Of a stretch of DNA of 64,000 nt, positions 5,501-51,731 are shown in pieces. Position numbers and translations under genes: made by a program. The notes beneath the pieces are model-generated. The model searched no databases. It saw only the letters and a list, made by a program, of their open reading frames with translations, and was not told where the DNA came from. The stretch is taken from NCBI GenBank assembly GCA_051362555.1, contig CM120647.1, positions 13,182,651-13,246,650 on the forward strand. The letters are read 5' to 3'. The stretch is from Lingula anatina. Lineage: Eukaryota > Animalia > Brachiopoda. Each line of letters starts with the position of its first letter. The first letter of the stretch is position 1.

Positions 5501-6108
5501 TTTTTACAAGACCCCAGAGCAATTAAACCCCAAAAATTTACATTAGGTGTTTGGTTCCACAATAAATGTTCAGAGTTTATCTCTAAGACCTGGGCTTGTG
5601 TCTAAAACTTGATTTTCATTAATTATTAGATTACAGTCCTTGAGAAGGGAAAGTGATAGTTTGTGATAGATTACTGTACTTCAGCTGACAGGAACATTTA
5701 TAATATCACTTAAAATAGGATAGCATGACTGAAGATATGGAGGAATATTGTTGATATGGTATTTATTTAGTCCATGAATAAAGCTATTAATATAAAAGCA
5801 TCACAGTAAAAAAAAAAAAAGCATGCAATATTTCCTGATGCTAGGACAGTTTATGGAATTTAAAATCTATCCCTACAAATTAATAAATGGGTATTTCTTT
5901 ATAAGTCATCTCCAACAAGTCAGTCAGTACATATTTATTGAATAGTTTTTCTTTGCATTTGTTAGTTTGAACTTATGGTTCTTATTGTTTCGTTTCAGCT
6001 GCGATCTCTTCACGTCCTGGCCAATGTGGCAGATGTGATGGGTATGTTCTGGAAGGAAAAGAACTAGAATTCTATTTGAGAAAGATCAAGCAGAAGAAGG
6101 GCAAATAG
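2551..6108 (+). CDS. RPS8: 40S ribosomal protein S8 (eS8), 208 aa
   Basis: Exons 2551-2554, 3011-3117, 3468-3567, 4055-4230, 4771-4900, 5999-6108 (627 nt, all GT-AG). Translation [16 protein letters not shown]...[12 protein letters not shown]...[28 protein letters not shown]...[33 protein letters not shown]. Confidence 0.97.
5312..5411 (+). ncRNA. SNORD46: Box C/D snoRNA, SNORD46 (U46/snR63)-like, in rpS8 intron 5
   Basis: C box ATGATGA 5317-5323, D box CTGA 5404-5407, terminal stem CTGC.GGCTA/TAGTCGCAG. Guide GTCATAGTTAC is complementary to the conserved 28S GUAACUAUGAC; 3' end CTTGTCATAGTTACACTGA matches my recollection of human SNORD46, which is also RPS8-hosted. Confidence 0.85.
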
Positions 6109-7911: not shown

Positions 7912-8277
7912 ATGCACCAAGGAAGTTCCTGGGACGATAGCGTGATGTTGGCCAATGGGGGCCCGGACGTGCAGAGAGGGGGGCACCACCACCACCATCA
8001 CCCTGGCATGACCCGAAGCAAGGACGACGCGATGGTAGCATACTTCTTTCAGCGGCCACAGCCCGACACTGAGCTCATGGGGTCAACCAAACGCTGGGCG
8101 GGCGGGGACGACAGTGTGATTGAACAAGGAATCAAGGTGTGTATTTTACACCTGTGTTTATTTGGGTTCTCGTTATGTGGGCCCTTTTCACATTGGGGTC
8201 CCTTTCTGTTAATATTTTTGTGGACTTAGTTGGGTATACCCCCTCCCCCATATCAATAATAATATACATTGAAACAA

Positions 8278-8309
<32 letters not shown>

Positions 8310-14300: not shown

Positions 14301-17300
14301 TGATTATAAATTACATCTCAAACTACGTATAACTAGTAGCGGGAGTCGCTTTGCGCTGAACGACAGGAGAGAACTTTTGCGGCAGTTTTATATTAGGATG
14401 AAGCGCTCCCACACGCAAAGTCAATTGACTAGTTACTTTCACAAGAATGTGAAAACGGTAAAAACAACATATTTTATCAACTTTTTGGTCAATTTAAAAA
14501 ATAATTCAATGTAGTAAGCCCTTTTTCTCGTTTCTTGTAAGTATTAAAGTAGTTAACTTTTTTTTTTTTTTTGAAAGTATTAACTTTTTTTTTTTTTTGA
14601 AAGAGAATGTTCTATAAACTGAAAAGGACTAAACTGAGTGAATGCACAGACTGGAAAATAAATTTAGTCCAAACCTTTGTTATGTCATTACTGAATTTAC
14701 TCCTCAAAACATCTAAAACAAGACAATTCAGTGCCACATAAAATGTAAAAAAAATCAGTTCTAAATACCCTAAAATGCACCAAATTGCACCTCCATTTAA
14801 AAAATTTTTCGGGGGGGGCATGCCCTGGACCCCCCTGGTATTGCTGGGAAATTCGGACTGCCTACCACCTCGCAGAGCTTGAAAGCCAGGGGAAACACTG
14901 TGTATACTGTCCAGTCTTTTACATTCCTTTCTGCCTGTCTGGCCATGCTGAACCTTGTTAAAGAGACTAACAATTTTATACCTGCCCCCCCTGACAGGTG
15001 TTGAGTACAGATATATATATCTTGCTCAAATTATACTTGGTACTTCTTTATCCATGTGGGGGAGAGAACACATTCTATAGACAGGTGTGTTGGTGCAGTG
15101 TTGCATTAAAAAATAGACTGCCATTGAGGCATAGCCTTTCGACGTTGGTGTAACCATAAACTTCAACTTGGGTTCGACTTTAGACCAATTTGTTTTAGCT
15201 GAATTGCTAGCAAATTTAGAGGCTTAACTGAGACTGCTGAGTGCCTAAATGTGTTCTTATTTTTTAATTATCATATGTCACCCTTTATAAACACCATTTT
15301 TGATAGTGTAAAAATGAGTCAAAATAATCCAATTCTGCAGGTGTAATATTAAGACCCCCACCCCACCCCTTTGAGGTTAGCAGTCATAGGCAGTCAACCT
15401 GAATATAATACAGTAGAATGAGATTCACAGAAAGTAATTTTTGAATTAGATTGTTTTGATAAACAAGCCTTTTGAATAAATTAGGAGATAACTCAACCAG
15501 CTGTTGATTGAAATCTGTCCTCATTTTCAATCCATATTGAATTCTGTCTTCTTTTTCAATATTAATTACATGCTGTCTTGGTTTTCTATCCAAATTGTAA
15601 TCCATCCTCATTTTCTATCCAAAATGTAATATGTTTCCATTTTAGATCCAGATTGTAATCTGGTCCTGGTTTTCTATCCAAATTGTAATTTGTTCCCATT
15701 TTCTATCCAAATTGTAGTCTGTTCACATTTTCTATCCAGATTGTAATCTTCCCATTTTCTATCCAAGTTGTAATCTTCCCATTTTCTATCCAAGTTGTCA
15801 TCTGTCCTCATTTTCAATCCAGATCATAATCTGTTCTGTGTTTTTAATCCAGATCAACACTAACGCCAAGAAGCTATGGGAGCTGGACCATGATGACGGA
15901 AAGGGGCAGCAGAAGCTGTACAGTCCCTGGGCCTCCAGAGATGACACCTGGGGGGCACCCTCCGCAGGTACTGAGAGAGAGAGAGTTGTTGGATGCGTGT
16001 GTGTGTGTGAGAGAGAGAGAGAGAATTGTTGGGTGTGAGAGAGAGAGAGAGAAAAATGGGTGCGCGCGCGCGTGTGTGTGAGAGAATTGTTGGGTGAGAG
16101 AGAGAGAGAGAGAGAGTGTGTGTGTGAGAGAGAGAGAATTGTTGGGGGCCTGTGAAGATGAGAGAGAGAGAATGGGTAGGTGCATGCGAGAGAAAAAAAT
16201 GTGCTGTTAATGACAGGTAATAGCTTCCAACAGGTGAATTCTAGACCTAAAGAAAATATTAACCATGTTGAGCAGGAAGTACTACTGGAGTACAGTGAGA
16301 ACCAAAGCTTCTATGATTATATCTGAAAAGCCAGAGGGTTCTGATGATGGCTTTTAGGAAGAGTATGAGAAGTTTTGATATCTTTGTAGCTAAATAAATT
16401 TCATCTTTAGGTAATTAATGTATGTTAGAATGTGGCAAAAGTTGATTTGATGTTTACTACTTGCTGAAACATGGAACTAAACAATATCCAGAGTTCTGTC
16501 TGGAGAATTCGATTAATCTGGTTATCAAGCCTTTGTATTTTGTTGTTTCATCAAATCGCATACGGTTACTTCAGTTTTCTTTCTCAAATTTTCAACCAAC
16601 TTTGCCAGTCTTCAAGACATCTACTGATCAAAAAAAAAAAAAAAGGTAACTGTCTCTGATATGATGTAATCAGAGAAACTCTTGTCCTGTATTTCAGAAG
16701 CCAATGCCCTGGGTGTGAACATGGTGGAATATGTCTTGGGCGGATCCCCCACTGGGAAGGACATGGACTCCAGGCTGAGGCATCTCAAGGGATATGTATG
16801 TATACAGAGCACAGACCAGATTGTGTGTTTATTTTATGTTACACTGTGTCATATTGATGTGAATTCATGTGTTGAAATAAGCATTAGATAAAAAAATGGT
16901 AAAGAAATGAATAAGTTTAAGTTATGATCATTCCCCCCCCCCCCCCGATAAATAAATCGATTAAGAATAATAATGTAATAAAAAGAAAAAAAACATCAGA
17001 TGAATTGGTTCAGTTGCATAAATAATAAATGTTGAGACCTCTCAAAGAGCAATGGTATAGACTCTATTGACTGTATTGATCTTCCAGCCCCCGCACCAGC
17101 AGGACGTCCCCTCCCAGGTGAAGGAGAAGAAGAGTAAGACACCGTCCCCCTTTGAGGGCGAAAAACCCAACGAACTGAACTCCCAGGATGTCCAGGCTAA
17201 CGGCATTCTGCAGAATGGGTTGGAAGACAGGTAAGTACATAAAGTCTACAGGGCACCGCTCACCAAATTGGGGCCTTAGTAAACTGGGCAAATTTAAACC

Positions 17301-20300
17301 ATTTGGAGGAAAAAATGATGAAAAGCACCGATTTAGCTAAGCAAAAAATATTGGTGAGGCTACCACCTTAAATATTTAAAGAACTCAACACTTTGAGACA
17401 AAGAAAGTCGAGCCAAGTTTCAATGTACTTCTCCATTAAGTCTATTCTATGTAAAAGAGATTATATGCCAGAATTATCTGTCCACTCTACGTTAATATGG
17501 CTTGAGAATTCAACCCCCTTGGTGAAGTGATAAACCAACCCAACACTTGGTCATCCAGGTGAGCTGGACTTGTTCTGGCTTTACTTGGCTCTGTCTGTGT
17601 GGTGTATGGGAGCTGAATACCCCCACAAGGGGTTTGAGGCATATTCCCTTTCCACAGTGTTGGAGATCAACCAAGTCCCCGGTCCTCTGTGACTGGTGTG
17701 GACTGAACCTTGCATATTCCATCAACTTTCTGTAGTCACTAGTTGACCTTGACAGTGGAGAAAGACCATGCAAGGTACATTTCTTGAATAAATGATAAAA
17801 AAATATTGATAAGAAATTCTTTTGGGTTCAAGCATATTGTGCTGTTGAGGTGGACTGCAACCCGTGAATATTTACTGAATATCTGACAGGTCTGAATGCA
17901 TCAATAACATATTACTGTTTGACAGGTCACTAGGAATCTGTTAACTATGACTGAATATATGACAGGTCCCCAGGAAATGAATAGCTTACCAGATATATTT
18001 GACAGGACTTAATGCATCAATAATCAATTACTGTATACATAACAGGTCCCCAGGCAGCCGTCAAACGTCTCCCACAGAAGAAGCGGTCAAACAGAACCTC
18101 CAGCAGCAGCAGCAACAGATGCATCAGTTACAGCCAGTGGCACCAGGTGGTGCTGGGGACTTCATCCACCAGCCTGTCTTGGCCCAGAACTCCATGCTGC
18201 AGCTGGATGCGCCCCCTTTTGAGCCTGGCGGGATTGAGCCGCTGCAGTTTGACTACTCCAACCAACTTCTTCCCTCCATGGATAGCCCCAACTTTAACAT
18301 GGAGTATAATCAGCAGGTGGGTTGTTGAAAGATCAGTCAGTTTAAAGTTTACTTAACAGAAATAGAAAGATGGATGAACGAATGAACAAATAAATAATGA
18401 ATTCATAATATCAAAAGTTGTGGCATGCTTTTCAGAAGTTTCTGCTCCTTTTGATTAAAACTATAAATAATCAACTAATATATTAACAATAAACATATTT
18501 GAGGGCAATGATTTTTGCAGAAAAGATTCCATAAACATTAATAATTTCATTTTGTCTTTCACAAGTTTTTTTGTAAGCAGGGTGAAACAGTTCTTTATTA
18601 CCAGTCTGCAGAGAATGTGAAAAAAAGACTTGAAATTTTACCTGTTTAAAAAAAAAAAGTTTCACGTTTTCTTCCAACAGCAAATGATGCGAGAGCAACA
18701 GCAGCAACAACAACAGCAGCAGCAGCAGCCGATCCTGCTGGCTGGTGGACAGCAATACGCTCTGGTAGGCACGCAGCAGCAGTTAGGTAAGACTTTCATA
18801 CTCCTACAGACTCAATGACGTAACATGACTGCTACTGATTAATATACTTCTGATTACCCAAGTGGTTCTTGTTTTATGGCACAGAACCTTGCAGTCACCC
18901 CCATCCCAATCTGCTCAGTGCTTGACTTAAACACTGGGTTTAAGTCAAATAACGGTTAAGTTTTAAGAATCAGTTCTTTTATACACAGGAACTCAAAGTG
19001 CCATTATGATAAACTTTTGTCAAAGACTCCTTGGGAATTTTTGCAGAATGGAAATGATGAAAATAAGTCTTGAAAACGGTCCACACATTTCAGTTGGGGT
19101 CCCCTTCATGTAGTATCAATTGTCCCTGTTCTAAAGGACAAACTCGTTTCAACCAAGTACCTAACTCCTTGTGGGCTGTGATATTTGTTGATGCTGATGG
19201 GTTCTCAGTCCAAGGATGGAGAGAAGAAGAGAGCAGTGTGGGGTGTAGAATTCGTGCTTGACTCTGTACTGTTAAATGATCATATTGAAGACCTGTTTAA
19301 AAACACAGAGATGTCCCTTTAGTTTTGTGCTGTGTTGTAACATCTCAACCACCAGTGAGGGCACCAAATAAAATGGGGAAATGAGAGAAGAGCGACCCCC
19401 ACAGAGATATGAGGGAGGAGGGGGTTAGGATATGGTCATTTTTCTATACTTGCCCTGTATTGCATGAACTGATCAATATATATTAGTTTTATATTGCATG
19501 ATTTTTACTTTTTAGTGTATTGGAGTGGGAAATAAAAACAGATCTGTGAAGATTTGTGCTCAGTATTTATGATTCAGTGGATTTGGATTTTCAAAAGTGA
19601 AAAAAGGTTTACCTTTGGAAACTCAAATCACTTGAAAAGATGCATGGTAATTTTTGCAAAGATATTTTTACAATTTTTGGAACAATTTGTTGGAAGCTGC
19701 TGCGCATTTTGGGTCTTTGAATTGGTTGAATGTATCGTAATCGGAAATGGTTTTGGCTCGATCTGAGTGGGGGCGCGGGAAGGGGGAAGCTGCATTCACA
19801 CCAGAAGTAACTTAGACCAATTCAGCTAACATAAGTTCAACCATAGGACATTGGACGCCGATCACATGGCATCACTTGGCCACCATTTGATATCACCAAG
19901 CAACCATTTGACATCACTAGGCAACCATTTATCACCTGGCAACCACATGACATTATTACCTTGTAGACACCACCTGGAGACTTCAAAATAATACCAGTGT
20001 CATATGAATCAACCTTTTGATCTTGCAGTGTCATACATCCCGTGTCTTTAGTAAAAGGTCACATTCATAACCAAAGTTGATATGTGGACTAACAACTTTC
20101 AAATGGACCGGCCATAGTTGATTTGCAGATCTATTGGTGGATGTCAGGTGAAATTGTTGTGAATGTCCCAAAGTTGTGATGTCATACAGCCCATATCATG
20201 ATGTCTAAGTTAGTTCTGGTGTGACTGCAGCCTATCTAGGCCTGCATGGCTTTCTGTGGGCTGAGACTGGACTTGTGCATGCCTACCTGGGGGCCTCACC

Positions 20301-23300
20301 AGGCTGACAAGGATAACATGCAAACAGATCAGAACCCATATGATTTAAAGTATCTCAGGTGTCATAACCGGATAAGAGGATTTCATCACTTTTTTTTTTA
20401 CACCTTGAAACTTTTCAATACCAACACTGACTTGAGCTATACCTAAACAGGACTTTCGATCACTACTGTGACCATCCTCAGTCTGTGTTAGTTACTCTGA
20501 GACTGAGCAGTACTCACTATTTGTTAGGGTAAAGCTCAAGTAAGTGCAGCAGATATTGAAAAGTTTAAACATGTAAAATAATCAGAAGACTACACAGGTG
20601 AATTTCCTCAAAAGAATTTCATCCCATGTTCCTTGCCCAGAGTTTGCAGTGTCCTTGTTGGCCTGTTGTGTGGCCAGTGTGCAGTCGGCCAGAAGGCTCA
20701 CTCAGTGTTGTAAACCCACTATGACCACAGTCACAACAGCAGACTAACTAGTCCACGAATCAAATATGGCTACCCGCTTAAAATTTTGATGTCTAATCCC
20801 TTAATAGATACTGAATAGATTCCCTGCAGGGATTACGCAATAAGAATTCAAGTGGGTCGGCCATATTTGATCTGTGGACCAGTTAGTCTGGTGTGGTGAA
20901 TGCGGCCTGTCAGTGTTGCGTAAATGCAAATTGACCAAGCATCAACAGAAAAAGACTTGAAAATATGTGAAAAGGATCTCAGTAGCCTGAGTGTGTGATT
21001 TATACACGTGCAACAAGAAAATCAACCAGAATTCGTGACTTTAGATGAGCTTTTCATATTGGGAAAGACTTCTTAATACACTCAGTGAGCCTTCCAACAA
21101 AAAAAAAAAAATTGAAAAAAAAAAAAAAAGAAATACATGCCGTGCTGCAGCTTTCTCCGGGCTGTTGTTGTATGTTGTTATGTTGTCATTGTTACTGCTG
21201 CTACTGCTACTGTTGTTGATTTCTTCATCTTCAGGCTTACCCACTGCAGGCACTTTCACACCGACCCCCTATGTACTCAACGCCCAAGACCCCTACGCAG
21301 TTGGAATTCCCATTGCAACCGCAGGTCAGCAAAAAAATAAAAAAAATGAAAAAAAAAAACGTAGAGTAGTTTGGGACTCTGTAGTTTAGATATCTGTGGT
21401 TTGGGGGCTTTTCCAAAGGGGCACACCCAAATGCAAAATGTCTTAAGTTTTTGGTTTTGGTAACAGTGTGGTTTGTGTAGGTTATGAGGTGGGGTGCATC
21501 AAGATACTAAAAAAAGTTTGGGTTCTTATTTGGTTCTTGGGGGTGGGGTGGGAGGGGGGTTGTCACCCATAAGCAAAATTTAGGTGGAAGATTTAGGGCT
21601 TTTTTGGGGCAGGGGGGGGGGGGTGGAAGCACACCAATGTGAATCTTTTTTTTTTTTAAATATTCTCTTAAGTGTTGTCCCATGGACTTTTTGGAAGTGG
21701 GGGACAGGTACATGAACATCTGTAGGACTTTCGTGGGGCAGGGGTAGACACCAATGTGTAAAAAGTAGTGAAATTTAAGGCTTTTTTACTTTGGGGGTGG
21801 GGGGGGGGGGGGGGAGGCAGCTTGTCAAATGAAGGGTGTAGATATGGGGGTTCTTTAAAAGGGATCTTTCACTGAGGCAGTTTGATGAACTGGAAACGCG
21901 TGTATGTTTATTTGCAAGTAAACCAGGAAATGGAGGGACATTCATTCTTTTCCATGTAGTCCCCACAGACAAATTGGTGAAACCGAAAAAAAATTATTTA
22001 AAAAGATGGGCAACTATTATGCATGTCAATGTTGTCCTGAGCAACACATTCTTTGTGGTATGTGGGGCAACCTGTATGTTTCAGAGCAACTTTCTTTGCA
22101 CTTGATGGTTACGGGGTTGTGAAGCAATTACTATGAAGATACATACACGTGAAAGTTGTGAATATATTCCTTGAAGCTGAACAGCTGAAACTTGCATTTG
22201 GTGTGTTCCAGCAGTGGGTTCGAAACTTGATTTTAAAGTATTTTTTGGTCTAGATGTGAGCAGTGACATTTTTGTCTGATATTTAAAAATGCATGATGCT
22301 TTTTGGACTGTGTCGCTTTGGGAGGGTTTTCTTAAACTACTGCTTTGATTTGAGCTTAACATAGTTAAGGATTTGTCCTGAATTGGGAGAGAGAGAGCGT
22401 ATGAAAAATATTAATCAGTTTTAAAGGGTTTGGATATTTTTCAAAAAAGAAAAAAGGAAAAAAAAATTTTTTTTTTTTCAAATTTATTTTTGTCTTTGTT
22501 GTAGCCCTTTACAGATGTAAGATGCTCCATGAAACAGACTCAGGTCATAGCTAACATACATTTAACCCTTCATTCCAGTTGCCAGCTTCCGTTCTTTTCA
22601 TACAACATACTGAAATCTGTGTTCGAGATCCCTTTCTTCCTTAAAGTTTCTTTCTCCCTCTCACTATCTAAATTTCCCAGTTTTAATGGCAATTCTAATC
22701 ATGCATTTGAAAAAGGTGAATGCCCAATTTATGCTTGGGGTAAAGGTCTTCATAGCAAGCACTAAACACCAAGCTCCACAATTCGATAAAAATCTGTATT
22801 TCATGTGCTGGCTTTAACGCATATGCAGACATTTGCATACACACACCTAATAGAAAAAGATACATACATATATATGTGTATATATATATATATAAACAAA
22901 TACACACAATGAAATCAATGTCACCATGTGTTCTCTCTCATACCTATCAAAATTACCTTCCAGGTGGACCAACGGTGATCCCCCAGTATTACGGTGTCCA
23001 GACCCCCTGGGGGGTGTATCCTGCCAGTGTCATCCAGCAGGGACAGCAGCAGCAGCAACAGCCAGGAGTGCCCCCACAGCAACAGCAACAACAGCAGCTA
23101 CTGCAGGGTCAGGGTGACCGCCCAATGACCCCCCAACAGCAGCAGGCCCAGCAGGGGAGAGGGGAGGCCTTGGGGTCCCAGAACCCCACGGTGATACAGC
23201 CCCAGATTATACAGGCCCCAGGTAGGGAGATGGGTGTAATGGTCATATTGATAGTAATTGCAATGAAGGTAAAAGGTGATAATGATTATGATAATCTGCT

Positions 23301-26300
23301 TGCAGCTATGGGGTTTGATATAACAATTAAGATGATTGCATAAACAAGAATATTGGATATTTCAAATTTTATCATTAGAAAAATTAATATTTTTGCTTCA
23401 CATACTGCCAGAGTAATCATTCACTCTTCATGGCAACAAACATGACCCTCTAATCTCAGACCTTGTTGCAGGTGGTTACCAAATCCTGACTCCAGCCTAC
23501 TATGACCAGAATGGGCAGCTGGTGATGGGGAACCCACCCCGGGGTATGCCTGGTACCCCTGTGAGACTGATCTCCCCAGCTCCAGTAATACTGAACTCTG
23601 GACAGCAGCAGGGTGAGACAGAGAGAGAGAGAGAGAGAGGGGGGGGGGGGGAAGAGAAGGGTGGGGAGTGGGAGAAAGAGAGTTTTAACCTATGCTTGTG
23701 CTGATTGGGGGAGGGGAGAGGGGCACTCATAATTTAAATTTGAAAAAACACATTTTTCAAATTGGGTAAGTTTTAGAGATAGTCCATGGTATACCTTAAA
23801 TAGCCCAATATCTGAGAGAGAAAGAGAGAGAGATTTCTTAGTGTTGAAGATAAGGGTTGTAATTAATTTTGAATCCAAAAAAAAAAAGATTTTAATTTGA
23901 TAAGCTTTAGAGATAGAGCATGGCATAGCAGTGATACAGAAACTTCATGTGAAAAGAGAGACATGTGTCTCCCATTTCATAAAAATATGAGACACCAGGT
24001 TCAAAACAAGGGACACATCGTAAACACCATTTTTTATTTCCATAAAACAAGTTTTATTCTTAAAAAAAAAAAAAAAACATTTGCTCCTTGAAACACTCTT
24101 AGGCATGATTACCAGAAGTGCCATTATTCATGTCATGTCAATGTAGTAATGTCAGTAAAGTAATGTAAAATCATTACACCACAAATGACAAGTATGTTGA
24201 TGGCAATGTGGTCAAACAGGAATGCGTAATACTGAAGGAATTGGTCCTGGCAAACACTTACAGTTATGACAGTATGAAAGAACTCTGGGCAATTATCAAC
24301 ATATTTCATAAGAACAATTTCCCGAACTTGTGCAAATTGGCTGGCATAGCACTTGCCCTCCCAGTGCATACTGCAGACGTAGAACGTGGCTTTAGTGCTC
24401 AAAATATAATCAAATCTAGCCTTAGAAATAGACTGATCAGTGAAAATTTACAAATGTTGATCGCCATAAAACTAAATGGCCCCCTTTCTCAGGATTTTGA
24501 CTTTGGAAGTGCTCTTGGTGTGTTTAAAGCAAAACGACAAAGGCATTTCTCATGAACATTGCTAAAACAACATTGCCAAAGATTGCCAAGAGCAATACAA
24601 TGCATCTAGACTGTTAAAAAGCTAAATCAACGAACAGAATGTACTTTCTTTATCCTGATCTTGGGAGCATCTAATACATGATACATGAACTCCTGGTAGG
24701 TCTTCAAATATGGCACTCCACTGGCTGCTTGGCTAGACACCAGTGCAAGTTGGTGAGCAATGCAGTGCAGTTGAATGAGCTGTGGATTTATCTCTCTTTT
24801 TAGTGTTGTACCGACTCCATTGTGTTTTCCGGTTATAACCTGATGAGATAAAGATTGAAATTAATTTTTCCACATCAACATCTGATGAACTAACCAATAT
24901 TTAAAAAAATTTAAACTTTTAATTTATTTCATTATTAAAAAGTTTCCAAACTATTTTATATTTTGGAATTTTTCATATATATAACAGACTGACAGTAATA
25001 ATTATAATCATGACTAAATAAAATTCATGAATGAAATTTTAAATATTTATTCTATTTATTGTTTCCTTGTAATATATTACATATCCAGTACATTATTTAA
25101 TTTATTCTATTTATCAACTTCACACCAGTTGTTTTATATTTATTTTTTCTTGATAATATTATGCAATACTGACCGATGCACCGTCACTTCCTAGTCCTAC
25201 TACCTTATCAGGCGGCACTTCAAACTTTGTCAAGAGATTTTTGACAGATGTTGCAATGGTGTCTGCTTTCCCATCCAGTATTTCACAATTCTCTAAGAAA
25301 ATGGTCTCTGGTTTACAGCCTGATGATATCCTCGCACACACACTTAGTTTTTTTGTACTAGTAATGTCACATGATTCATCACAAAGCACAGAGATATAGT
25401 CGACATCTGTCAGCTTTTCTCTCATATCTCGTAGGATCACTTCGTATATACTCTCTTGAAAGTATTTGGCAATACTATAGGATTGGTAGCTTTTTGCAAT
25501 TGGCACAAGAGCACTGCAGCCTTGCTGTATCAAAAAATCAACAAAATCTGGGTACTTGGATGTTGCTATGTCCTGCTTTGCCAAGAAATATATTGTTCGT
25601 ATAGCATGGATTATGGCACTGTCGTTCTCACTAAACTGATTTTTTACCATTCTCGATAGAGTTGACCTTGAGATTTCATCTTGTACCGACTGGCGATGGT
25701 CAGCTGCTGAAGCATGCCGCTCCAAAGTCGTGGTTCTGAAGTTGCTACAGCCTTCGGTAAAAACGTTCTTTTTTGGCTTTTTACACATAGTGTGCAAAAC
25801 ATATGGTTGTCTTTGTGTTCTAGCCATGCCCATTTTGATTTCCAAGCTTCATTGAACACTCGTTTGACACGTTTCCGAGGCAAACAAGCAGCCGACTGGT
25901 CACGAGGTTCAGTTTCACTGTCACTTTGCTCCGCCATGTGCGAGGAGGAAAATTACGGTGAATGCAAGAAGAAGCATGATTCGCTGAATTCGCAAGCGTT
26001 GCTAAGCGCTATAACTGAAAGGTGCGATGTGATTGGCTGTTGAGCCCCACTCAGTTTCAGGTGATATTGCGCACTCACTGAACGATTTTTACTTTGTTAA
26101 ACTGTTTGGATCATTCCTGATTTTTATTTTTCTGATTTCCTGGTCGCAAAGGTGATGCTATTTTTGCGACAATGGCCGCATGTTTGGTCGCATTACGATC
26201 GTTTTTTATGAGACAATAATGAAATTTATGGGTCAAATGTCGCAAAGTCGCGCCGTTTCTGTATCGCTGGCATAGTATGAACAACTCGATATCATGCGGA

Positions 26301-29300
26301 GTTTCATAGTACCAATTTTGACACTTCACTCCACCGTTGAGTCACCCATGATCACCCAAAATGTTTTTAGGCGTCCATTTGTCTTTTCCAGGGAACACCC
26401 TACGTCTTTTGACCACACAGCAACAGCAACAGATGCAAACTCCCCCCATGAACAACTCCAACTCCCAGCAGCAGAACAACATGGGTAAGTTCACCCCCTC
26501 TCCTGGCTTAAGAGGTCAACATGTTGTATTTCTGAATTAACCATTTAATAACCATGTTCATCTCCGAGTGGGTTGTGTACACTTCCTAGTTATATTGCAT
26601 TAGATGTTCACTCTTCTAGGTTGGTGGGACACCTGACACAACTAACACACTCAACATGCTGATATTGTGTTCAGTAGACTCAAAATTGTAGTTTACAGCA
26701 CATTGGTATTTCATAATTATCTTTTTGAAGTGATGTATGGTATGCAGGTGAATGTGGAAAAGATTTCATTGGATTTCTTTATGGAAGTAGAACCGAGTTT
26801 AATTTAAAGGCCAAAAAAATAAGATAAGGGTCCTTTTGGACTATTTGTGAAACCTGAATGAAGTTTCTGAAGATTTTGTAGAGACTGAAGACTGGTAAAA
26901 AATACAAGGTGAGATTCTTTAGATTCTGTTTAGATTTTTAAGCAAATAAAATTCAAAGCATTGTGAATACATATTTTTGGTCTCTGGTCATTTGTGAAGC
27001 AGGTCTCCCAAGTGACAGGAACTGAATTAGGGGCACCTGTTTACTGAAGTCCAATCCACATCCACCCAGCATACCTTATTATCTCACTAATAACATCACT
27101 TTGTGGCATCATTGCACAATGTACTGGTGGGTTACTATGGGTGGGAGGGCCTAGAAGGATATTTGGACCCCAAAATGGCTTGCAGAATACCCCTCTCCCG
27201 CACTGGCTGCATTCTGTGGAAGTTTGTTCCATCTAAAAAGTTTATTTTCCCCATTCCACCCCCTTTTCCCCTCTGCACTAATCTCAGTTCATGGTTTAGT
27301 TCTCTTGTAGGTGGTTATACTATTCCAGTAAGCAGCAAAGTTCTGAGTAAACAAACTTCAGTAACCTCGGCCTTAACACCCAACCCCCTTTCCCCACCGC
27401 AGCTTACCTCCACCCCATCCCCGTGTATCAGTCACAGTTCACACTCTAGTTCTCTTGTAGGTGGTTACACCACTCCAGTCAGCAGCAGTTTGTTCACTCC
27501 TATCACAAGTAATCTGGGGCTAACACCACAGCAGCAACAACAGCAGCAGAGTGGGGCCAGCTATCAGAGCAATATGGGCTCTATGGGCAACCTCGGGACA
27601 ATGGGCAGTACAGCAGGTGTGATAGGGACTGGTAGGTTTAGTTGGCTGCATGTGGGGAGGGCGGGTCCCGCGTAGATTGGGGGAGATGTACGCTGGCTGG
27701 CTGCTCCGTGTTCTGCGTCACTGCTGCCTTGTCTGTTATATTGTGCTATTCTTGGGGGGTGATGACTTGGGTGTTACGGCATGTTTTTTTTTTTTTTTTT
27801 TTTGTTTTAAGGAAGGAAGAAAGAAATGAAAAGAAGAACTGAAGAAAAAGGGGAGGAAACTTGTAAAAAGTCTTTTTAATGGGGGGGGGGGTCTGAATTT
27901 TCAGGTTTGTGAAATGCTATTGGTTTATGAAGAAGAAAAGAAAAAATTGATTTGTTTTGTGGTTTCTATTAGCTTCTGCCAAACTCTTAGCTTATTTCAC
28001 GTCCTCGACCAATGCAGGTTGGGATGAAACTTGAATTAAGTAGATAGATAATTGCTGCCAATTTGTTTGCCACTGCCAAATGTGGTTGAATGTGGAAATG
28101 GCCCCATTTTTTCCCCACCCAAGACAAGACGGCAGCTGATCTAGGGGCAGTCCAGTACTAACCAGGCCTTCGCTGTACAACCCACAGACACTCACTAGAG
28201 CATGGAGGGGGAGGAGTATCTGTACTCTCTTACCACTGTGATGTACTGATACAGATTTAAGCTAATGATTTTATCATCCAACAGGAAAACAGTTGTCTCA
28301 TTCATGGGGTTGTCTTGCTACAGAAACGTCAACAAGAATCCAGAACAGTTTACAGCATGAAATTTTGTTAAACATTTTTTTGCTGAATCAGAAGTTTGAT
28401 TCATTCCTCAGCAGTGCTTTAGAAATAATTCAGGAAATTTAATGCTGTTTTAACATTTGGCAAATCTTTGATTTTTAATTCACTAGGAGGAAAATGCCCT
28501 TTTTTTACTCAGCTTACAATCAAATACCTTCTCACTTGTACTAAAAAAATTGATAAGATATACCACTTCTTATGTTACAAAGTATTTTCCCATAATGGTG
28601 GAGGGGGGTTACTGAAACTAGATTTTGGGGTAAAAAAAAGTACTGTCAACCGTTCTCTAGCTCAGTGTCTGTGGCTTCTACAGCATCATGTTTTCCCTAA
28701 CTCTCTTATTTATGAAGTTAGCGTAGATCATAAAACACAGATTGTCAATGCCTCACCTCTCTGTTCTGCAAGACTCACTGGGTTCCTGTGAAAGATTCTG
28801 ATGCTGAAAACAAAACACCTGCATGATATGGCCCATATATTGGAGAAAAAGTTTTTATATCGGAGAATGTATTGGATATTTGAAGGGAAAAAAAAGAATT
28901 ATAAGGGATCCAGGTGAAATTCTTGTTGCCAGAATTCATCAACAATTTACTTTTAATGACGGTATGCATTTCCCATGCTGTTGAAAGACAGCAAATACAT
29001 TGTTTGAAGTTCGATGTTTTCCCAATTGAGTGATGCAGATATAAAGAGGTTTCTAGGGCAGAGTTGCAGTAAACAACTTCCATACGGTAGCTGTATTTGT
29101 GGCCATTTCTTTGGTCCTTACTTAAGAAAGTAGAACCTTGATTGCAATCACCACAAATCACAGATGAAATTCGATGTTCCTCAATATGCCGAAGCTTGAT
29201 TGCAATATCTGTGTGTAATCCTATTGAATGGCGCTCAGCATCACTGCTCTGACCTAGAAAATTGCAATTGAGAGAATTTCACATGGTGCAAGTTTGCATC

Positions 29301-32300
29301 TAGCTTCAAACTTTCTAAAGACAGGACTAAAAATTATGATGTGAAAAATGGTTTTGAATGCAGCTGCTAAAACATTGGAGCATATTCTCTGAAGTTTGTG
29401 AATTACAAATCTCATTTGATTATGTTTCTCTTGCACAGGAACCTGTACTGTTCTGATGTATTGGAGATATTTACATGAGATGATTTGTAAATTTCAAATT
29501 TTCTTGAGAGTGGGCTCTGGATGGGATTTGCTTTTCAAATTTTATAAATAATGTGTCCTGTTTTTTATATCATTTAATAATTTGTTGGATTTTATTATTT
29601 AAAAGAATGGCACAAAATTTAAATGAATCACCTTGCAAGTATGCTTGATTCAACTTTCCAGAAGAAATACATAAATGAGGATGCAAAATGTTATAGCTTT
29701 GATATCTGCTTATAAGGATGAATATATTTAATGTTTATCTTTGCAGACCTTTATTGACTGGCTTTAATGAAAACAAACCTCATCCACGTTTTGAGTGTAT
29801 GTTTGTCTACTCTGTTGAAACTAACTACTAACTTGCCCAAATAACATGTAGAGTCATAGAGTATGACATATTGTACCCATGTTTAAAAGTTGGTACACTG
29901 TATGTATCCATTTGTTTACTGTATTCATGGGTACAGTATGTATTTATTGGTACACTGAATATCCATTACGTACAATATATCCACTACTGTATGTCCATTG
30001 GTACACTGTATATCCATGATATACAATATATCCACTGTTTATCCAGTGGTATATATTGGTACACTATATGTAAACACTGTATTTTTGGTATACAGAAAAT
30101 AATGGGTGGAGTCATCGATTGAAGAATTTTGATAAAGCTGATATGGACTTTCATAAAATAAGAATTAAAGATTAACTTTAAGATGTGAGAGCTAAAAGTG
30201 CTTTGTTATCCTGGGTTTCTATAAATGTTGCTTGCCTAAATGAATGATATGTGATTCATCTGGCTTCTGCTGTTAGAAAATAATATTTGCCTGGCTTGGA
30301 ATGCACAAGGGAATCAGAATCTGGGACAATTTATCTGTTGTATGTGTTTGTTAGCATGTATTAAAGACATCAACTGTTACAGGCTTGCCGAACTCTGGCC
30401 GTCGAGACTCGCTGACGGGATCTCTGGATTACAAGCGTCAGATCCCGTCAATGAGCCCCTTCTACAACACGGCTGGCCTGGGAGGGATCAATTCCCCCGC
30501 CGGCCCCATGGGACTGGTACAACCAGCGCAGTCGCTGACACCACCACCATCATTGTCTGGATCAAACTCCAGTTTAGGACTTGGTAAGGGTGTGGTCTGT
30601 ATGATTAAAAGTTGTGGATGTGGGCAGTTCTGGCAAAAAGATGGGCTGATTTTAATTTTGTGTATTTAATAAGACAGAAACCTAAAATAGTTCTATGAAG
30701 ACAGAGACAAATATGAAGTAAAAGAAATTCCTTAGCCAGAATAAGGAGAAAAACACATTGAGAGGGAGTGAGGATAAAACAAACAAATACACTAACCCAT
30801 TTCTACTGGAAAAAGAAAAAAATATTTTGCTAAAAAAGTGCCTTCAGGTCTCTCCATTCTTAACCCAGTTCTTCAATGTTTCAGGCCTAGGCAGCAGTGG
30901 CAGGCTGTATTCCCCAGCCCCAGGGGCGGAGGCCAAGCTGCGTAATGGCAGCCTCGGCTCTGGGGGTCTTTTTGGCAACACCCTGTTCCCCAGCAGCAAG
31001 TCTGGGCTGCGTACAGCTAGTCTCTCCAAAGAAGTCACGGGGCGTAGCAGGCTGCTGGAGGACTTCAGGAACAACCGTATCCCTAACCTCCAGCTGAAGG
31101 ATCTTCTGCACCATGTGGTGGAGTTCTCACAAGACCAGCATGGGTCAAGGTAGGTCAAGGTCAAGGTTGGTCAAGGTCACTGGGGCAGGTGGTTCATTCA
31201 CCTTTCCACAGATAATTACGCACATGTGCCATCTATGTTATTCATGCTACATTCTGGTCTAGATATGTACATTGCTATTTCCAGTCAAGCAGATGCAGCT
31301 CCATTGCTGCTGGAAGTAGGCATGATCACACAACCAGAACAAATGGGTTAACTGTGTATGTCCTTTTCTGTGGAAAGATGCATTGTTGGGGTCTTATTGT
31401 TTTTGAGCCTGGTGTTAATGCATGACAAAAGATTTACAAGTTGGATGATTTACTGTAAGCATATACTTTCTTCAAACATAGTAAATACTATTGCATGGTT
31501 GTACTTTATCCAACACTTTGTCATCCATGTGAGCTGGACTTGTTCTGGCTTTACTTGGCTCTGTCTTTGTGGCGTATGGGAGCTGAATACCCCCACAAGG
31601 GGTTTGAGGCATATTCCCTTTCCACAGTGTTGGAGAGTAACCAAGTCCCTGGTCCTCTGTGACTGGTGTGGACTGAACCTTGCATATTCCATCAACTTTC
31701 TGTAGTCACTAGTTGACCTTGACAGAGGAGAAAGACCATGCAAGGTACATTTCATGTCTAGGGAAACAGACATGCTGAAACTGTCAGTCCGATCGGTCAT
31801 GACCGACAAATGTTTTAAGAACCACAATTTTGAATTTACAGTCATCATTCGACATCCTTCACTAATATAATTATATAAAACCCAAAGCATTTTCCCCCTC
31901 CATTTCAAACCTTTCACATTCACAAACAAACTAAGCTACCTAATCGTACTGGTGGTATCTGTCTCAAACGAATAGGGCGATTTTCAGTCCAACAAAAATC
32001 CATTCGGTGCAACAAAATTTTTCATTACTGCCGGTCCAAATGTCTGGCCATTCTGAAAAGTTTTCAGCATGTCTGGGGAAATAAGATAAATTTGAGTAAG
32101 TCTACTCTCTACCCCTTTTGTTCAGATTGTAGTGAGCTTTAGGCTTATATAAACCAGAAAGGTGAGTAGTGACACCTCTGATTACATTGCCCAGTATCCT
32201 TAACCACCATCAGGTTATCTAGCTATAATGCCCTCTTTAAGTTTAAGCATTATAAATGTCCTTGTGAATGTGCATGTTTCTCATATTTTAATTATCTTCA

Positions 32301-35283
32301 TTAATTAATGTTTATGATTGTGTTCCGTCAGGTTTATCCAGCAGAAACTGGAGCGTGCCACGCCCGCAGAGAAAGCCATGGTGTTCAACGAGATTCTTAC
32401 CGCAGCCTATAGCCTGATGACGGACGTGTTTGGCAACTACGTGATACAGAAGTTCTTTGAGTTTGGAACCACGGAGCACAAGCAGACCCTTGCGCAACGT
32501 GTGCGCGGCCACGTGCTCCAGCTGGCCCTGCAGATGTATGGGTGTCGTGTGATCCAGAAGGCGCTGGAGTCTATACCCCCTGACATGCAGGTGAGGACAG
32601 ACACCTGTCTTACATTGAGGCCCTCTTCACATCCAAGTGGTGCAGTTCTCTGTATCACACCAGTTTGACTGGTACCAAGTTGCAGTTACGAGAGAGAGGG
32701 TTTTACTCCCTTTCCCAAGCCCCAGTGTACGGATCAGAATTAGGTGACTGTTGTACAAAACACTAGATGGGCTAAGTTGGCATTGTATCATTCAGCTTTT
32801 CACAGATAATGACCGTGGTTGTGGTATCATGCCTATTACTTTGATGGCTTGCATGATAAACCCATTTTGCGCATCACTGGAAACTGGCATGACACCTCAA
32901 CTAGCAGAAATGGGTTCATTGTGCGTGCAGATCTCTGTCTTAATCTGTGGAAAGCTGAATACTGGACTGATACAAAAATCTGTACTTCCTGATGTGAAGA
33001 GGGCCATACCTCTAGTCTCACTTTCAGTTGTTTATATATGGTAACTTTCCTGCAGGATCAACCACAACAGTTCTGTTAAGAGACTAAGCATATCTCTCCG
33101 TGTATTTCTTTTTATAGCCTTACCCAAACAGTGTAGCATATAATCTCATGTCCGCCTTGTGTTCAGTGAAAAAATACATAAATAATTTTTGTCATGCCTT
33201 CCCACAGTACACTGAAACCTCTAGACATCTCTGTGTATATATCTTGTCATGCCTTCGTGGTGTACAGTGAAAAATATCAATATCTAAATGTATTTCCGCC
33301 ATGCCCTGCCCAACAAGTAAACTGTAGCATATATCTCTTACTTATTTATCTTGCCCCATCAATGTGACCAGTAGCATATGTCTCTCTATATATTTCCTGT
33401 GGTACGCAGCCTCACCAGTGCGTTGACATTGTCGTGTCACAGGTGGAGATCGTGAAGGAGCTGGACGGCCATGTGCTGAAGTGCGTCAAGGATCAGAACG
33501 GCAACCATGTGGTGCAGAAGTGCATTGAATGCGTGGAGCCCAAGCACCTGCAATTCATCATTGATGCTTTCAAGGGCCAGGTAATTAGATGTAATAGCAT
33601 TGTGGTCATATTTGTTGGGAATGTTTTTGCACAGTTTTTTTATTACATTTAATTTCCGTCTTCATCCGTGAAGATACGTGGAAATTAGGGAAAAAATAAG
33701 TCTGGCAATGAAATTAATCATATATATATATATATGATGGGAATATTTAGTAATGGGTATATGAAGTAAGTAAATAGTACAAAAAATCACTCATTTTTGC
33801 ATGAACCACTGTCACTTTCTAAAGAATGTTAAATGATGTGCCATCATTAGAAAATAAGATTTATTTTGTTTGTGTGTGTGGGGGGGAGGTGAATTAAATT
33901 AAAATAAATAATATATTTTTGGAGGGAAAAATATTCTGATTTTATGTTGATATTTGAGCAGGTGTTTGCTCTGTCCACCCATCCTTACGGCTGCCGCGTG
34001 ATCCAACGCATTCTGGAGCACTGCGTCCCAGAACAGACGCACGGGATACTGGAGGAGCTGCACCAGCACACAGAGCGTCTGGTGCAGGACCAGTACGGTA
34101 ACTACGTGATACAGCACGTACTGGAGCATGGCAGCCCCGAGGACAAGAGTAAGATTGTGAATGAGCTGCGCGGGAAGGTTCTGGTCCTTAGCCAGCACAA
34201 GTTTGCCAGGTAAGAGCATATTCATAACAACGGACTAACAAGTCCCTGGATCAAATATGGCGACCCATTTAAAGCTTGTCACTTTAATACTTATTAGATG
34301 CTAAAAATTCCCAGCATGGATTGTGCAACAAATAATCAAGTGGGTCAGCCATATTTAATCTGCGGATCTGTTAGTTCGCTGTTCTGAAAGCACTTTCAGA
34401 GGTGATCTATCAGTTGGTGAAAATGGGTTTCAACTACCAAAATGTTGCATTGAAAACATAAAAAGCATTTGATGTTGAGGTGCAAGTACATGAATTATCA
34501 ATAGAGGAAAGGAATATTCTGCTGTTGAGTGCCTAAGGTATGTACAGGAATGTTCTTTCATTAACAGTAATGTGTATTGGATCTTAAACCAACCCAACAC
34601 TTGGTCATCCAGGTTAGCTGGACTTGTTCTGGCTTTACTTGGCTCTGTCTTTGTGGCGTGTGGGAGCTGAATACCCCCACAAGGGGTTTGAGGCATATTC
34701 CCTTTCCACAGTGTTGGAGATCAACCAAGTCCCCGGTCCTCTGTGACTGGTGTGGACTTAACCTTGCATATTCCATCAACTTTCTGTAGTCACTAGTTGA
34801 CCTTGACAGAGGAGAAAGACCATGCAAAGTACACTTATTTATTTTGTTGAAGAACAAATCAACTTAATTATGTCTATTGATATGATTTTTAAATCTGTTA
34901 GTATCGTGACCTTTTGTCCATCAATGCATCACTAGAGTGCTAGTCCAAGTTTTTGACTTTTGTCCATCTTTTGCAACTTGCATATATTCTCCTGAACATA
35001 AACGCTCACTTTGGTTCTTCCAATGAAATTGCCATTCCCTGTATATATGAGAGAGAACAGCTCAGGTAAAGTTATTCTTCATCCTATATTTCAGCAATGT
35101 GGTGGAGAAGTGTGTCTCCCACTGCTCCAGGTCAGAGAGGGCCATGATGATTGATGAAGTCTGCAGCATGCAGGATGGGTAAGCTCAGTTCTAAGATTGA
35201 CCAGTAAAAGAGGCAGAGGTGTCTTGGAATTATATGGATATTTGGGTGTCATATTTATGCCCTTTCCACCCCTTCCTTGCTGG

Positions 35284-35329
<46 letters not shown>

Positions 35330-35846
35330 GAAATCGCAATGACTGTTAATTGTTAAATGTTAGTTCCAGTATCACAGTCATTCATCTTTATCATTCTTAT
35401 CCTGCTGAACAGCTCAAACCATTCACTCGTTTAAAATTGAGTGAACAGACGAAACAGGTAAATCATATATCTGGATCTGTCATAAATGAACATTTTCTGT
35501 CCGTCATTCACATGTTTGTTTCACTATGTCCAATTCCTCATACAACACCATGATGAGGTATCCGTTACGTTCATTCACCTGTATGTATATATATATACAT
35601 TTCAGGGTGCACAGTGCCTTATACACCATGATGAAGGATCAGTTTGCCAACTACGTGGTTCAGAAGATGATCGACGTGGCGGAGCCGGCACAGCGCAAAA
35701 TTCTGATGCACAAGATCCGTCCTCATGTGTCCACGCTGCGGAAGTACACCTACGGCAAGCACATCTTGGCCAAACTGGAGAAGTATTACATGAAGAACAA
35801 CTCCGACCTGGGACCCATTGGATTGCCGCCAAATGGAGGGATGTAA
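7912..35846 (+). CDS. PUM: Pumilio homolog (PUF RNA-binding protein), ~1072 aa
   Basis: 19 GT-AG exons with continuous frame (3219 nt): 7912-8136, 8965-9036, 15853-15967, 16698-16795, 17088-17230, 18046-18316, 18681-18786, 21235-21324, 22964-23221, 23472-23612, 26392-26484, 27461-27631, 30383-30583, 30885-31149, 32332-32590, 33443-33580, 33962-34209, 35095-35178, 35606-35846. N-terminal motifs [24 protein letters not shown]; PUM-HD from [13 protein letters not shown] through [20 protein letters not shown] to [16 protein letters not shown]. Confidence 0.96.
10400..11520 (-). mobile_element. piggyBac-like non-autonomous element
   Basis: TTAA flanks (10396-99, 11521-24), CCCCATAG/CTATGGGG termini; two copies of an acidic N-terminal-like remnant (MAAPHYG...[20 protein letters not shown]) on the minus strand at ~10960-11340. 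Confidence 0.6.
13604..14900. mobile_element. hAT-type MITE with 5-bp TSD
   Basis: TIR CAGTGTTTCCCCTG / CAGGGGAAACACTG; TGTAT on both sides (13599-13603, 14901-14905). Confidence 0.8.
15510..15852 (+). repeat. ~29-bp minisatellite ending in the pumilio exon 3 splice acceptor
   Basis: About 11-12 units of TTTTCTATCCAAATTGTAATCTGTCCTCA; last unit TTTTTAATCCAG is the acceptor. Confidence 0.85.
15972..16192. repeat. Compound (GA)n/(GT)n repeat
   Basis: Directly visible, with GAATTGTTGGG spacers. Confidence 0.9.
17540..17782 (+). ncRNA. SNORA73: U17/snR30 (SNORA73)-like box H/ACA snoRNA, copy 1 (pumilio intron 5)
   Basis: 5' stem CCAACAC/GTGTTGG; U17-like GGCTCTGTC..GTGG.GTA.GGGAGC and CCCTTTCCACA; H box AGATCA 17664-69; m1 ATATTCC 17714-20; m2 AGACCAT 17763-69 closed by CCTTGCA/TGCAAGG; ACA 17777-79 +3 nt. 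Confidence 0.9.
19789..20232. mobile_element. PIF/Harbinger-like MITE with internal ~21-bp tandem repeat
   Basis: 29-bp TIR GCTGCATTCACACCAGAAGTAACTTAGAC vs GTCTAAGTTAGTTCTGGTGTGACTGCAGC (2 mismatches). Confidence 0.7.
20723..20907. mobile_element. Palindromic MITE (related copy at ~34225-34390)
   Basis: Long arms CAGACTAACTAGTCCACGAATCAAATATGGC / GCCATATTTGATCTGTGGACCAGTTAGTCTG. Confidence 0.7.
23929..26269 (-). mobile_element. Defective hAT (ZNF862-like transposase) element with 6-bp TSD, frameshift, intron and internal inversion
   Basis: TIR CAGTGATACAGAAAC / GTTTCTGTATCGCTG; GCATAG at 23923-28 and 26270-75. Minus strand: zinc-finger-like N-terminus (W..W..L...MFCTLC), DESCD, GSDGAS, then after an AT-rich intron [14 protein letters not shown]. 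hAT dimerization domain ([21 protein letters not shown]) on the plus strand 24208-24555. Confidence 0.88.
29890..30080. repeat. Degenerate minisatellite (TGGTACACTGTATATCCAT core)
   Basis: Core visible 4-5 times. Confidence 0.7.
31510..31752 (+). ncRNA. SNORA73: U17/snR30 (SNORA73)-like H/ACA snoRNA, copy 2 (pumilio intron 14)
   Basis: Near-identical to copy 1; H box AGAGTA 31634-39 (changes only at N positions); ACA 31747-49. Confidence 0.9.
31767..32075. mobile_element. hAT-type MITE with 6-bp TSD
   Basis: TIR CAGACATGCTGAAA / TTTCAGCATGTCTG; GGGAAA at 31761-66 and 32076-81. Confidence 0.8.
34225..34390. mobile_element. Degenerate copy of the 20723-20907 palindromic MITE
   Basis: GGACTAACAAGTCC..GATCAAATATGGC ... 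CAAGTGGGTCAGCCATATTTAATCTGCGGATCTGTTAGTTC. Confidence 0.6.
34594..34836 (+). ncRNA. SNORA73: U17/snR30 (SNORA73)-like H/ACA snoRNA, copy 3 (pumilio intron 17)
   Basis: Near-identical to copies 1 and 2; H box AGATCA, m1/m2 intact, ACA 34831-33. Confidence 0.9.

Positions 35847-51687: not shown

Positions 51688-51731
<44 letters not shown>

What the first reader, a model, noticed from the sequence alone, without database searches (positions are those of the whole stretch)
17540..34836. Pumilio hosts three near-identical U17/snR30 rRNA-processing snoRNAs
Seen: a 243-nt unit occurs in introns 5, 14 and 17, always sense and one per intron, and similarity stops abruptly just after the ACA box. H-box changes fall only at N positions (AGATCA vs AGAGTA). 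Knowledge: U17/snR30 is required for 18S processing; known vertebrate hosts are SNHG3/RCC1 and rpS7, while human PUM1 hosts C/D RNAs (SNORD85/103), not U17. Inference: a novel host arrangement that couples 40S biogenesis to transcription of a translational repressor gene, next door to rpS8. High identity suggests recent cis-duplication or gene conversion.
Basis: partly seen in the sequence, partly recalled or inferred. Interest (0 to 1): 0.75.

Follow-up and report, generated by a model that had tools for sequence, protein, structure and literature searches.

The report
U17 snoRNA copies in brachiopod pumilio
Three introns of the pumilio gene of what is likely the lamp shell Lingula each carry an intact copy of U17, a small RNA known to be needed for making 18S ribosomal RNA; I found no report of this host gene, but U17 sits in many different genes in other animals, so this is likely an ordinary passenger arrangement and not a regulatory link.

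Summary
Three full-length U17/SNORA73 genes (Rfam 111-120 bits, cut-off 74) lie sense, one each, in coding introns 5, 14 and 17 of a 19-exon pumilio gene that matches Lingula anatina pumilio. H box, ACA box, m1 and the 7-nt m2-ACA spacing are intact; m2 has one change. One poly(A) run of three shows sense reads over U17 that continue into copy B's 3' intron, as expected of a maturation intermediate. The coupling idea is not supported. A metagenome scan found U17 beside rpL4, rpL19, rpL12, rpS7 and HSP60 exons and in tandem arrays; 0 of 126 (mostly short) loci held pumilio. Near-identical multiple copies are normal for U17 (six introns in Xenopus). Two DNA runs show an H-box variant absent from the three copies, and one has depth above what three loci allow, so a further U17 gene likely exists elsewhere. 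Flanks are unrelated, which argues against a recent block duplication and for homogenisation plus selection. Earlier scan notes report U17 in other hosts (RPLP0, RPN2), none in pumilio. New host, known kind; interest 0.25.

The parts
17540..17782 (+). U17/SNORA73 copy A, in pumilio coding intron 5 (17231-18045); H box 17664-17669, m1 17714-17722, m2 17763-17769, ACA 17777-17779
   Evidence: Rfam 119.9 bits; intron model; intron 5 spliced in reads; motifs
31510..31752 (+). U17/SNORA73 copy B, in coding intron 14 (31150-32331); H box 31634-31639, m1 31684-31692, m2 31733-31739, ACA 31747-31749; the copy with the clearest read support
   Evidence: Rfam 120.0 bits; 8 sense reads of run X12 run from U17 into B's 3' flank; depth about 14 over B against about 1 upstream
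34594..34836 (+). U17/SNORA73 copy C, in coding intron 17 (34210-35094); H box 34718-34723, m1 34768-34776, m2 34817-34823, ACA 34831-34833; one change breaks a pair of the 3' basal stem
   Evidence: Rfam 110.8 bits; differences; depth 1.6 in X12
7912..35846 (+). Pumilio coding region, 19 exons, 1072 aa, eight PUF repeats; host gene
   Evidence: exon 14 is 100% identical to Lingula anatina pumilio homolog 1; 8 PUF stretches in that protein
31753..32331 (+). 3' part of intron 14, covered by 3-8 sense poly(A)-library reads at single-copy positions; likely the tail of a 3'-extended U17-B precursor
   Evidence: places 32094-32206; bin 32156-32300 depth 2.98; introns 15 and 16 at 0-0.46
31767..32075 (.). 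High-copy inverted-repeat element (MITE-like) starting 15 nt after copy B
   Evidence: summed contig depth above 20,000 in X1 and X3; 14-nt terminal inverted repeat
34220..34388 (.). High-copy palindromic MITE-like element upstream of copy C; relative at 20720-20903
3026..6108 (+). rpS8 gene, upstream neighbour; hosts no U17
   Evidence: Pfam Ribosomal_S8e on one exon; Rfam scans of this region

Best explanation
The three repeats are intact U17/snR30 small nucleolar RNA genes sitting in pumilio introns; they are likely released by splicing and trimming of the pumilio pre-mRNA and are predicted to pair with 18S pre-rRNA during its processing, with pumilio likely serving only as a broadly expressed carrier that U17 moved into in this lineage. 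Steps: (1) pumilio is transcribed and spliced (shown for intron 5; exon-only depth for the others); (2) the excised intron is trimmed 5' up to the snoRNP and then 3', via an oligo(A)-tailed intermediate (inferred from known biogenesis; reads over copy B and its 3' intron fit); (3) m1 and m2 in the 3' hairpin pair with rm1/rm2 in 18S expansion segment 6 (established in yeast, inferred here; the changed second base of m2 would form a G-U pair if rm2 is the usual one); (4) the copies stay alike through purifying selection and occasional gene conversion (inferred); (5) at least one more U17 gene likely lies outside the window.
For: Full-model Rfam hits. H, ACA, m1 and 7-nt m2-ACA spacing as required in PMC2664660. 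With 13 other animal U17s, 15 of 30 consensus pairs show two-sided changes, 0 of 500 shuffles as high. Sense reads in X12: depth 8-17 over U17 against 0-1 in intron 5 flanks. Other hosts: rpL4 (L030), rpL19 (L018), rpL12 (L027), rpS7 (L029) by Pfam, HSP60 (L007); no pumilio hit in 126 of 126 loci while the same search finds the window's exons. Copies on one contig elsewhere are 84-98% identical (16 pairs). Literature: several host switches for U17 within vertebrates (PMC2655684); a broad expression profile is the main need for a host (PMC3511168, abstract). Extra gene: the collapsed U17 contig has depth 262.8 in X1; three loci with the window's haplotype allow about 190-217; its H-box variant is in none of A-C and recurs in X3 and in 4-5 of 17 X12 reads.
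Against: No mature 243-nt RNA was seen: no small-RNA or total-RNA library was identified, X15 shows depth 0 and X18 0.5-2 over U17. The metagenome loci are short (68 of 126 match U17 by blastn; median 1046 nt; 12 reach 3 kb) and of unknown animals, so they cannot exclude a conserved pumilio-U17 link among brachiopods or other lophophorates. The depth 262.8 also equals exactly three loci if all six alleles matched the contig (262.5), which I discount only because X1 flank contigs match the window with 0 differences. m2 reads AGACCAU against AAACCAU in all 14 species of Table 1 of PMC7601244 and in the 13 other sequences of alignment A3; pairing with this animal's 18S was not tested. The consensus structure was predicted from the same alignment it was counted on, and the search pattern fixed the core of the 3' basal stem.
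Confidence: 0.8

Rival explanations
1. Functional coupling: pumilio pre-mRNA is the sole or main source of U17, and selection keeps the link so that 18S production follows pumilio transcription.
For: Three intact copies in one host; of the 17 X12 reads at the H box, about 13 carry the window's two variants; human PUM1 lies in one locus with SNORD85/103 (table in PMC9152224; host status recalled), so pumilio genes can carry snoRNAs.
Against: Hosts differ among other animals; signs of a further U17 gene; multi-copy hosting is ordinary (PMC7601244). No conservation shown: run X11 of another organism laid pieces on three pumilio exons but none on U17 at 80% likeness, which is inconclusive.
Confidence: 0.12
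2. The copies are recent retrocopies or repeat-borne pseudogenes that happened to land in pumilio, and the working gene lies elsewhere.
For: Similarity stops at the mature-RNA edges, as for RNA-derived inserts; a parent elsewhere is likely; copy C has a stem-breaking change and little read support; MITE-like elements lie next to B and C.
Against: Three of three copies are sense and in one gene; no poly(A) tail or clear target-site duplication (longest shared flank word 5-7 nt); all boxes intact; total depth indicates a few copies, not hundreds (about 263 against over 20,000 for the MITEs); reads run from U17 into B's own flank.
Confidence: 0.05
3. Recent DNA-level tandem or block duplication inside pumilio produced the three near-identical copies.
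For: 96-97% identity; cis-recombination is a recognised route to copies in different introns of one host (PMC8178906, passages); such a flank-sharing duplication is seen in L008, where 495 nt including spacer are 83% alike.
Against: 40-nt flanks on both sides are unrelated apart from 9 nt (A/C) and 4 nt (A/B), and no other intron sequence is shared among introns 5, 14 and 17. An old duplication with later homogenisation remains possible and is part of the best explanation.
Confidence: 0.03

Closest known systems
Xenopus U17 in six introns of one ribosomal protein gene (Cecconi 1994, as cited in PMC7601244; the gene's later name rpS7 is recalled)
   Same: Several near-identical U17 copies, one per intron, in a protein-coding host; release by exonucleolytic processing.
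   Different: Host here is pumilio, not a ribosomal protein gene; three copies in 18 introns; 243 nt against 222 nt.
Human U17a/U17b (SNORA73A/B, Rfam RF00045) in the non-coding U17HG/SNHG3 upstream of RCC1 (PMC7601244)
   Same: Same Rfam family, full model matched; H and ACA boxes, m1/m2 pocket and 7-nt spacing.
   Different: Coding host; longer 5' domain; m1 ends CCAU (the commonest form in the metagenome hits, 42 distinct sequences) and m2 has G at its second position.
Yeast snR30 (PMC2664660)
   Same: [quoted passage not shown]
   Different: snR30 is 606 nt and capped (PMC7601244); these copies are intronic.
Invertebrate-type U17 loci found here (L007, L018, L027, L030, L040, L008 group)
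   Same: Intronic or arrayed U17, often several copies; L040 and L030 are 75-77% identical to copy A.
   Different: Hosts are HSP60, rpL19, rpL12, rpL4 or spacers without a Pfam match; none is pumilio.

Membership tests
U17/snR30 (Rfam SNORA73, RF00045) | Covariance-model match above the gathering score over the whole model | tested here: met
   3 of 3 copies, 110.8-120.0 bits against 74, model 1-219
U17/snR30 (Rfam SNORA73, RF00045) | Box H (ANANNA) after the 5' domain and box ACA 3 nt from the 3' end | tested here: met
   AGATCA/AGAGTA/AGATCA at positions 125-130; ACA at 238-240 of 243
U17/snR30 (Rfam SNORA73, RF00045) | m1 motif on the 5' side of the 3'-hairpin pocket | tested here: met
   AUAUUCCAU: first 7 of 9 bases as in Table 1 of PMC7601244, where the last base varies; complementary to the yeast rm1 core GGAAU quoted in PMC2664660
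U17/snR30 (Rfam SNORA73, RF00045) | m2 motif AAACCAU | tested here: inconclusive
   AGACCAU in 3 of 3 copies: 6 of 7 match; the change would give a G-U pair with a standard rm2 (inferred); differs from all 14 tabulated species
U17/snR30 (Rfam SNORA73, RF00045) | 7 nt between m2 and the ACA box | tested here: met
   7 nt in 3 of 3; requirement from PMC2664660 section 9
U17/snR30 (Rfam SNORA73, RF00045) | Conserved secondary structure (closing stem of the 5' domain, internal hairpin, 3' hairpin) | tested here: met
   MFE fold of copy A shows it, though z is only -1.75; 15 of 30 pairs with two-sided changes over 16 sequences, with the bias noted there
U17/snR30 (Rfam SNORA73, RF00045) | Pairing of m1/m2 with rm1/rm2 of this animal's 18S rRNA | not tested
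U17/snR30 (Rfam SNORA73, RF00045) | Stable nucleolar RNA bound to H/ACA proteins and needed for 18S processing | not testable with these tools
   Only precursor-like reads in one of three RNA runs
Intron-encoded snoRNA | Sense orientation inside a spliced intron of a transcribed host, one per intron | tested here: met
   815-nt GT..AG joint in X15 (18 reads), X12 (33), X18 (5) for intron 5; for introns 14 and 17 only exon-level depth and the protein match, joints were not among the rows shown
snoRNA retrocopy / SINE-like repeat | Poly(A) tail, target-site duplication, many dispersed copies | tested here: not met
   No tail, no clear duplication; contig depth of a few copies only

The most novel reading that the evidence does not exclude
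In Lingula, and perhaps brachiopods generally, pumilio introns are the main source of U17, so 18S rRNA production depends on transcription and splicing of a translational repressor gene, and the changed m2 motif is matched by a change in the 18S docking site.
Probability: 0.12. Interest if true: 0.55.

Novelty: new member of a known kind. Interest (0 to 1): 0.25.

Why it matters
It adds pumilio, and from the side scan rpL4, rpL19, rpL12 and HSP60, to the list of U17 hosts: a clear case of one essential snoRNA moving among broadly expressed genes while its copies stay alike. It gives a usable annotation for a brachiopod and a natural m2 variant to test against 18S. If pumilio proved to be the only source of U17, it would tie ribosome production to a stem-cell and germline regulator, but the evidence here leans against that.

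Tried and rejected
No whole genome is held, so a genome-wide count of U17 loci was not possible. The look-up of sequencing runs listed no RNA holder; raw-read runs were laid instead. Run X11 of another organism: 7 contigs laid, three on pumilio exons, none on U17 at 80% likeness: no verdict on conservation. A second attempt to read out the unknown 5' flank cleanly failed because repeat rows crowded the table. All-against-all blastp of reading frames in 36 U17 loci showed no clear coding host for the tandem group; Pfam on 294 sense-strand fragments from 14 loci gave hits in 5 loci and none in L005, L007, L025, L034, L038, L040, L045, L055, L059 (L005, L025, L034 and L045 only in part), so 'non-coding host' for the arrays is not shown. 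The idea that a U17-capped read-through RNA acts as a Pumilio decoy was dropped: only one sense match to the recalled Pumilio element lies between the stop codon and 39,900. The paired elements in introns 14 and 15 (31194-31385, 32788-32975) looked like a second RNA family but have no Rfam match and have inverted ends and further copies in the DNA runs: more likely an old MITE. The bacterial promoter scan is irrelevant to this animal gene. Papers not held: Marz et al. 2011, Atzorn et al. 2004, Cecconi et al. 1996. Searches with no relevant hit: U17+snoRNA+pumilio, 3 unrelated papers; SNORA73+host gene+PUM1, 0; snoRNA+host gene+Lingula, 0; U17+snoRNA+HSP60+intron, 0. Earlier scan notes by sequence and by genome gave nothing.
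Full report
1. Observation. Rfam finds three full-model SNORA73 (U17) matches on the + strand at 17540-17782, 31510-31752 and 34594-34836, with 119.9, 120.0 and 110.8 bits against a cut-off of 74. They are ungapped 243-nt copies, 95.9-96.7% identical. A coordinate-based exon model gives 19 coding exons, 18 GT-AG introns and an open frame of 1072 codons, with the copies in introns 5, 14 and 17. Exon 14 translates to a sequence 100% identical to Lingula anatina pumilio homolog 1, with molluscs and annelids at up to 79%; that protein has eight PUF repeats and matches the model except that it lacks exons 10-12. The organism is therefore likely Lingula. rpS8 lies 1.8 kb upstream of the pumilio start codon on the same strand. 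Similarity stops at the RNA's edges; A and C share 9 extra bases upstream, A and B 4 downstream.

2. Anatomy. Box H is AGATCA, AGAGTA, AGATCA; box ACA lies 3 nt from the end; m1 is AUAUUCCAU, m2 AGACCAU, and 7 nt separate m2 from ACA in all three. Fayet-Lebaron 2009 (PMC2664660; passages and section 9 read) shows that m1/m2 pair with 18S rm1/rm2 and that the 7-nt spacing matters. Table 1 of PMC7601244 (section 7 and passages read) lists AAACCAU as m2 in 14 of 14 species and a variable end of m1. The CCAU end of m1 is the commonest form in my metagenome hits (42 distinct sequences); the m2 change is not seen in the 13 other sequences of alignment A3. It would give a G-U pair with a standard rm2 (inference; 18S not tested). 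In A3, 15 of 30 consensus pairs show two-sided changes and 0 of 500 shuffles reach that; the structure was predicted on the same alignment and the search pattern fixed part of one stem, so this is supportive, not independent. Copy C has the lowest score and one change that breaks a pair in the 3' basal stem.

3. Expression. On 17001-18400, intron 5 is spliced out in 3 of 3 RNA runs. In the stranded poly(A) run X12 (about 6% read), sense depth is 8-17 over U17, 0-1 in the flanks of copy A and 31-76 on exons; X15 has 0 and X18 0.5-2 over U17. Eight X12 reads continue into the 3' flank of copy B. On 30851-35200, X12 depth is about 1 just upstream of B, 14 over B, 3-8 reads at single-copy positions further down intron 14, 0-0.5 in introns 15 and 16, and 1.6 over C. 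This fits a 5'-trimmed, 3'-extended precursor with an oligo(A) tail; transient tails on H/ACA snoRNAs are mentioned in PMC8178906 (passages). Read-through into exon 15 or internal priming is not excluded. Mature ends were not observed.

4. Are these the only copies? Probably not. In DNA run X1 the U17 copies collapse into one 212-nt contig of depth 262.8, against 82-88 for single-copy sequence; X3 gives 242.7 against about 62-76. That contig carries an H-box variant found in none of A-C, also present in 4-5 of 17 X12 reads. Five X1 flank contigs in the B-C region match the window with no difference, so X1 likely carries the window's haplotype; three loci then allow about 190-217. X1 also shows two 5' flanks at the U17 start whose mixed consensus agrees with B's flank plus an unrelated one, and X12 has 3 and 8 reads with 3' flanks unlike A-C. 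Against this, three loci with six identical alleles would give 262.5, and contig depth is a rough measure. I put one or more further genes at about 70%.

5. Hosts in other animals. tblastn of pumilio hit 0 of 126, while finding the window's exons. The loci are short (median 1046 nt), so this is weak evidence per locus. Where an exon is present it is something else: rpL4 in L030, followed by SNORD18 in the next intron; rpL19 in L018; rpL12 in L027 and rpS7 in L029 (both short pieces under Pfam's curated cut-off); HSP60 in L007, with a U17 at each end, and L040 reads as the last HSP60 intron (recognised by eye). Several contigs hold two or three copies each; 16 within-contig pairs are 84-98% identical, against a mean of 88% between contigs of the tandem group. 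The animals behind these loci are not identified. Literature agrees: U17 lies in two introns of a non-coding host in human and six introns of a ribosomal protein gene in Xenopus (PMC7601244); several host switches are known within vertebrates (PMC2655684, passages); snoRNAs drift among broadly expressed hosts (PMC3511168, abstract). PMC13736004 (two passages) describes a range from passenger to coupled host relations and does not mention PUM1 or SNORA73. PMC9152224 (passages) lists PUM1 with SNORD85/103 at one locus; that they are intronic is recalled. PMC7073466, PMC3349704 and PMC7464842 (passages) added nothing on this host.

6. Origin of the copies. Flanks are unrelated, unlike L008 where spacer was duplicated with the snoRNA, so a recent block duplication is unlikely. 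There is no poly(A) tail or clear target-site duplication. Copies differ by 3.3-4.1%, about as much as single-copy sequence differs between individuals (23 differences in 685 nt for X3, 8 in 379 for X1), and some bases private to one copy in the window are not fixed in other individuals. Old insertion and spread among introns, followed by selection and gene conversion, is the likeliest history (inferred).

7. Verdict. Genuine U17 genes in a host that I did not find in print (Marz et al. 2011 and its supplement could not be seen and may list invertebrate hosts). The arrangement is of a known kind, the host is one of many, conservation in relatives is untested, and regulatory coupling has no support beyond co-location. 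Novelty: new member of a known kind. Interest 0.25.

Noticed in passing
window 5310-5413 (+): SNORD46/U40-like C/D snoRNA in the last rpS8 intron: C and D boxes, terminal stem and an intact antisense element, but 24.6 bits against a cut-off of 40. Human SNORD46 is also in RPS8 (PMC5025248, passage), so this host link may be very old, in contrast to U17.
   Followed up: partly
L007:1-2654, L040:400-1171: U17 copies in introns of a mitochondrial HSP60 gene in an unnamed animal; no paper found for this host.
   Followed up: partly
L030:705-1652: U17 in an rpL4 intron with SNORD18 in the next intron.
   Followed up: partly
L018:577-1180: Two U17 copies in tandem ahead of one rpL19 exon, with no exon recognised between them.
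   Followed up: partly
L008:93-2081 and L005, L009, L017, L022, L041: Arrays of three U17 copies 0.5-2.3 kb apart with duplicated spacers that hold short splice-site-bounded pieces; possibly a non-coding host gene like human SNHG3.
   Followed up: partly
window 31194-31385 and 32788-32975: Two diverged elements with inverted ends in introns 14 and 15; the second folds strongly (z -4.6); no Rfam match; a few further copies in DNA runs. Likely an old MITE.
   Followed up: partly
window 24130-25952: Broken DNA-transposon remnant in pumilio intron 10: transposase-like frames on the - strand and a C-terminal piece on the + strand (family recognised from memory as hAT-like, not tested).
   Followed up: no
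window 7550-7890: Candidate 5'-UTR exon and intron ahead of the pumilio start codon, with a six-codon upstream frame at 7884 (read).
   Followed up: no
window 27269-27487: A 69-nt diverged duplicate (78%) of the acceptor and start of exon 12 lies 150 nt upstream of it; possible alternative acceptor. The public protein model lacks exons 10-12, which may reflect an isoform or a model error.
   Followed up: no
window 55095-55168 and 55286-55359 (-): Two tRNA-like sequences (47-48 bits) in a 191-nt tandem duplication; probably tRNA-derived SINE heads.
   Followed up: no
window 41000-53710 (-): A further multi-exon gene on the - strand, converging on the pumilio 3' end (read); not identified.
   Followed up: no
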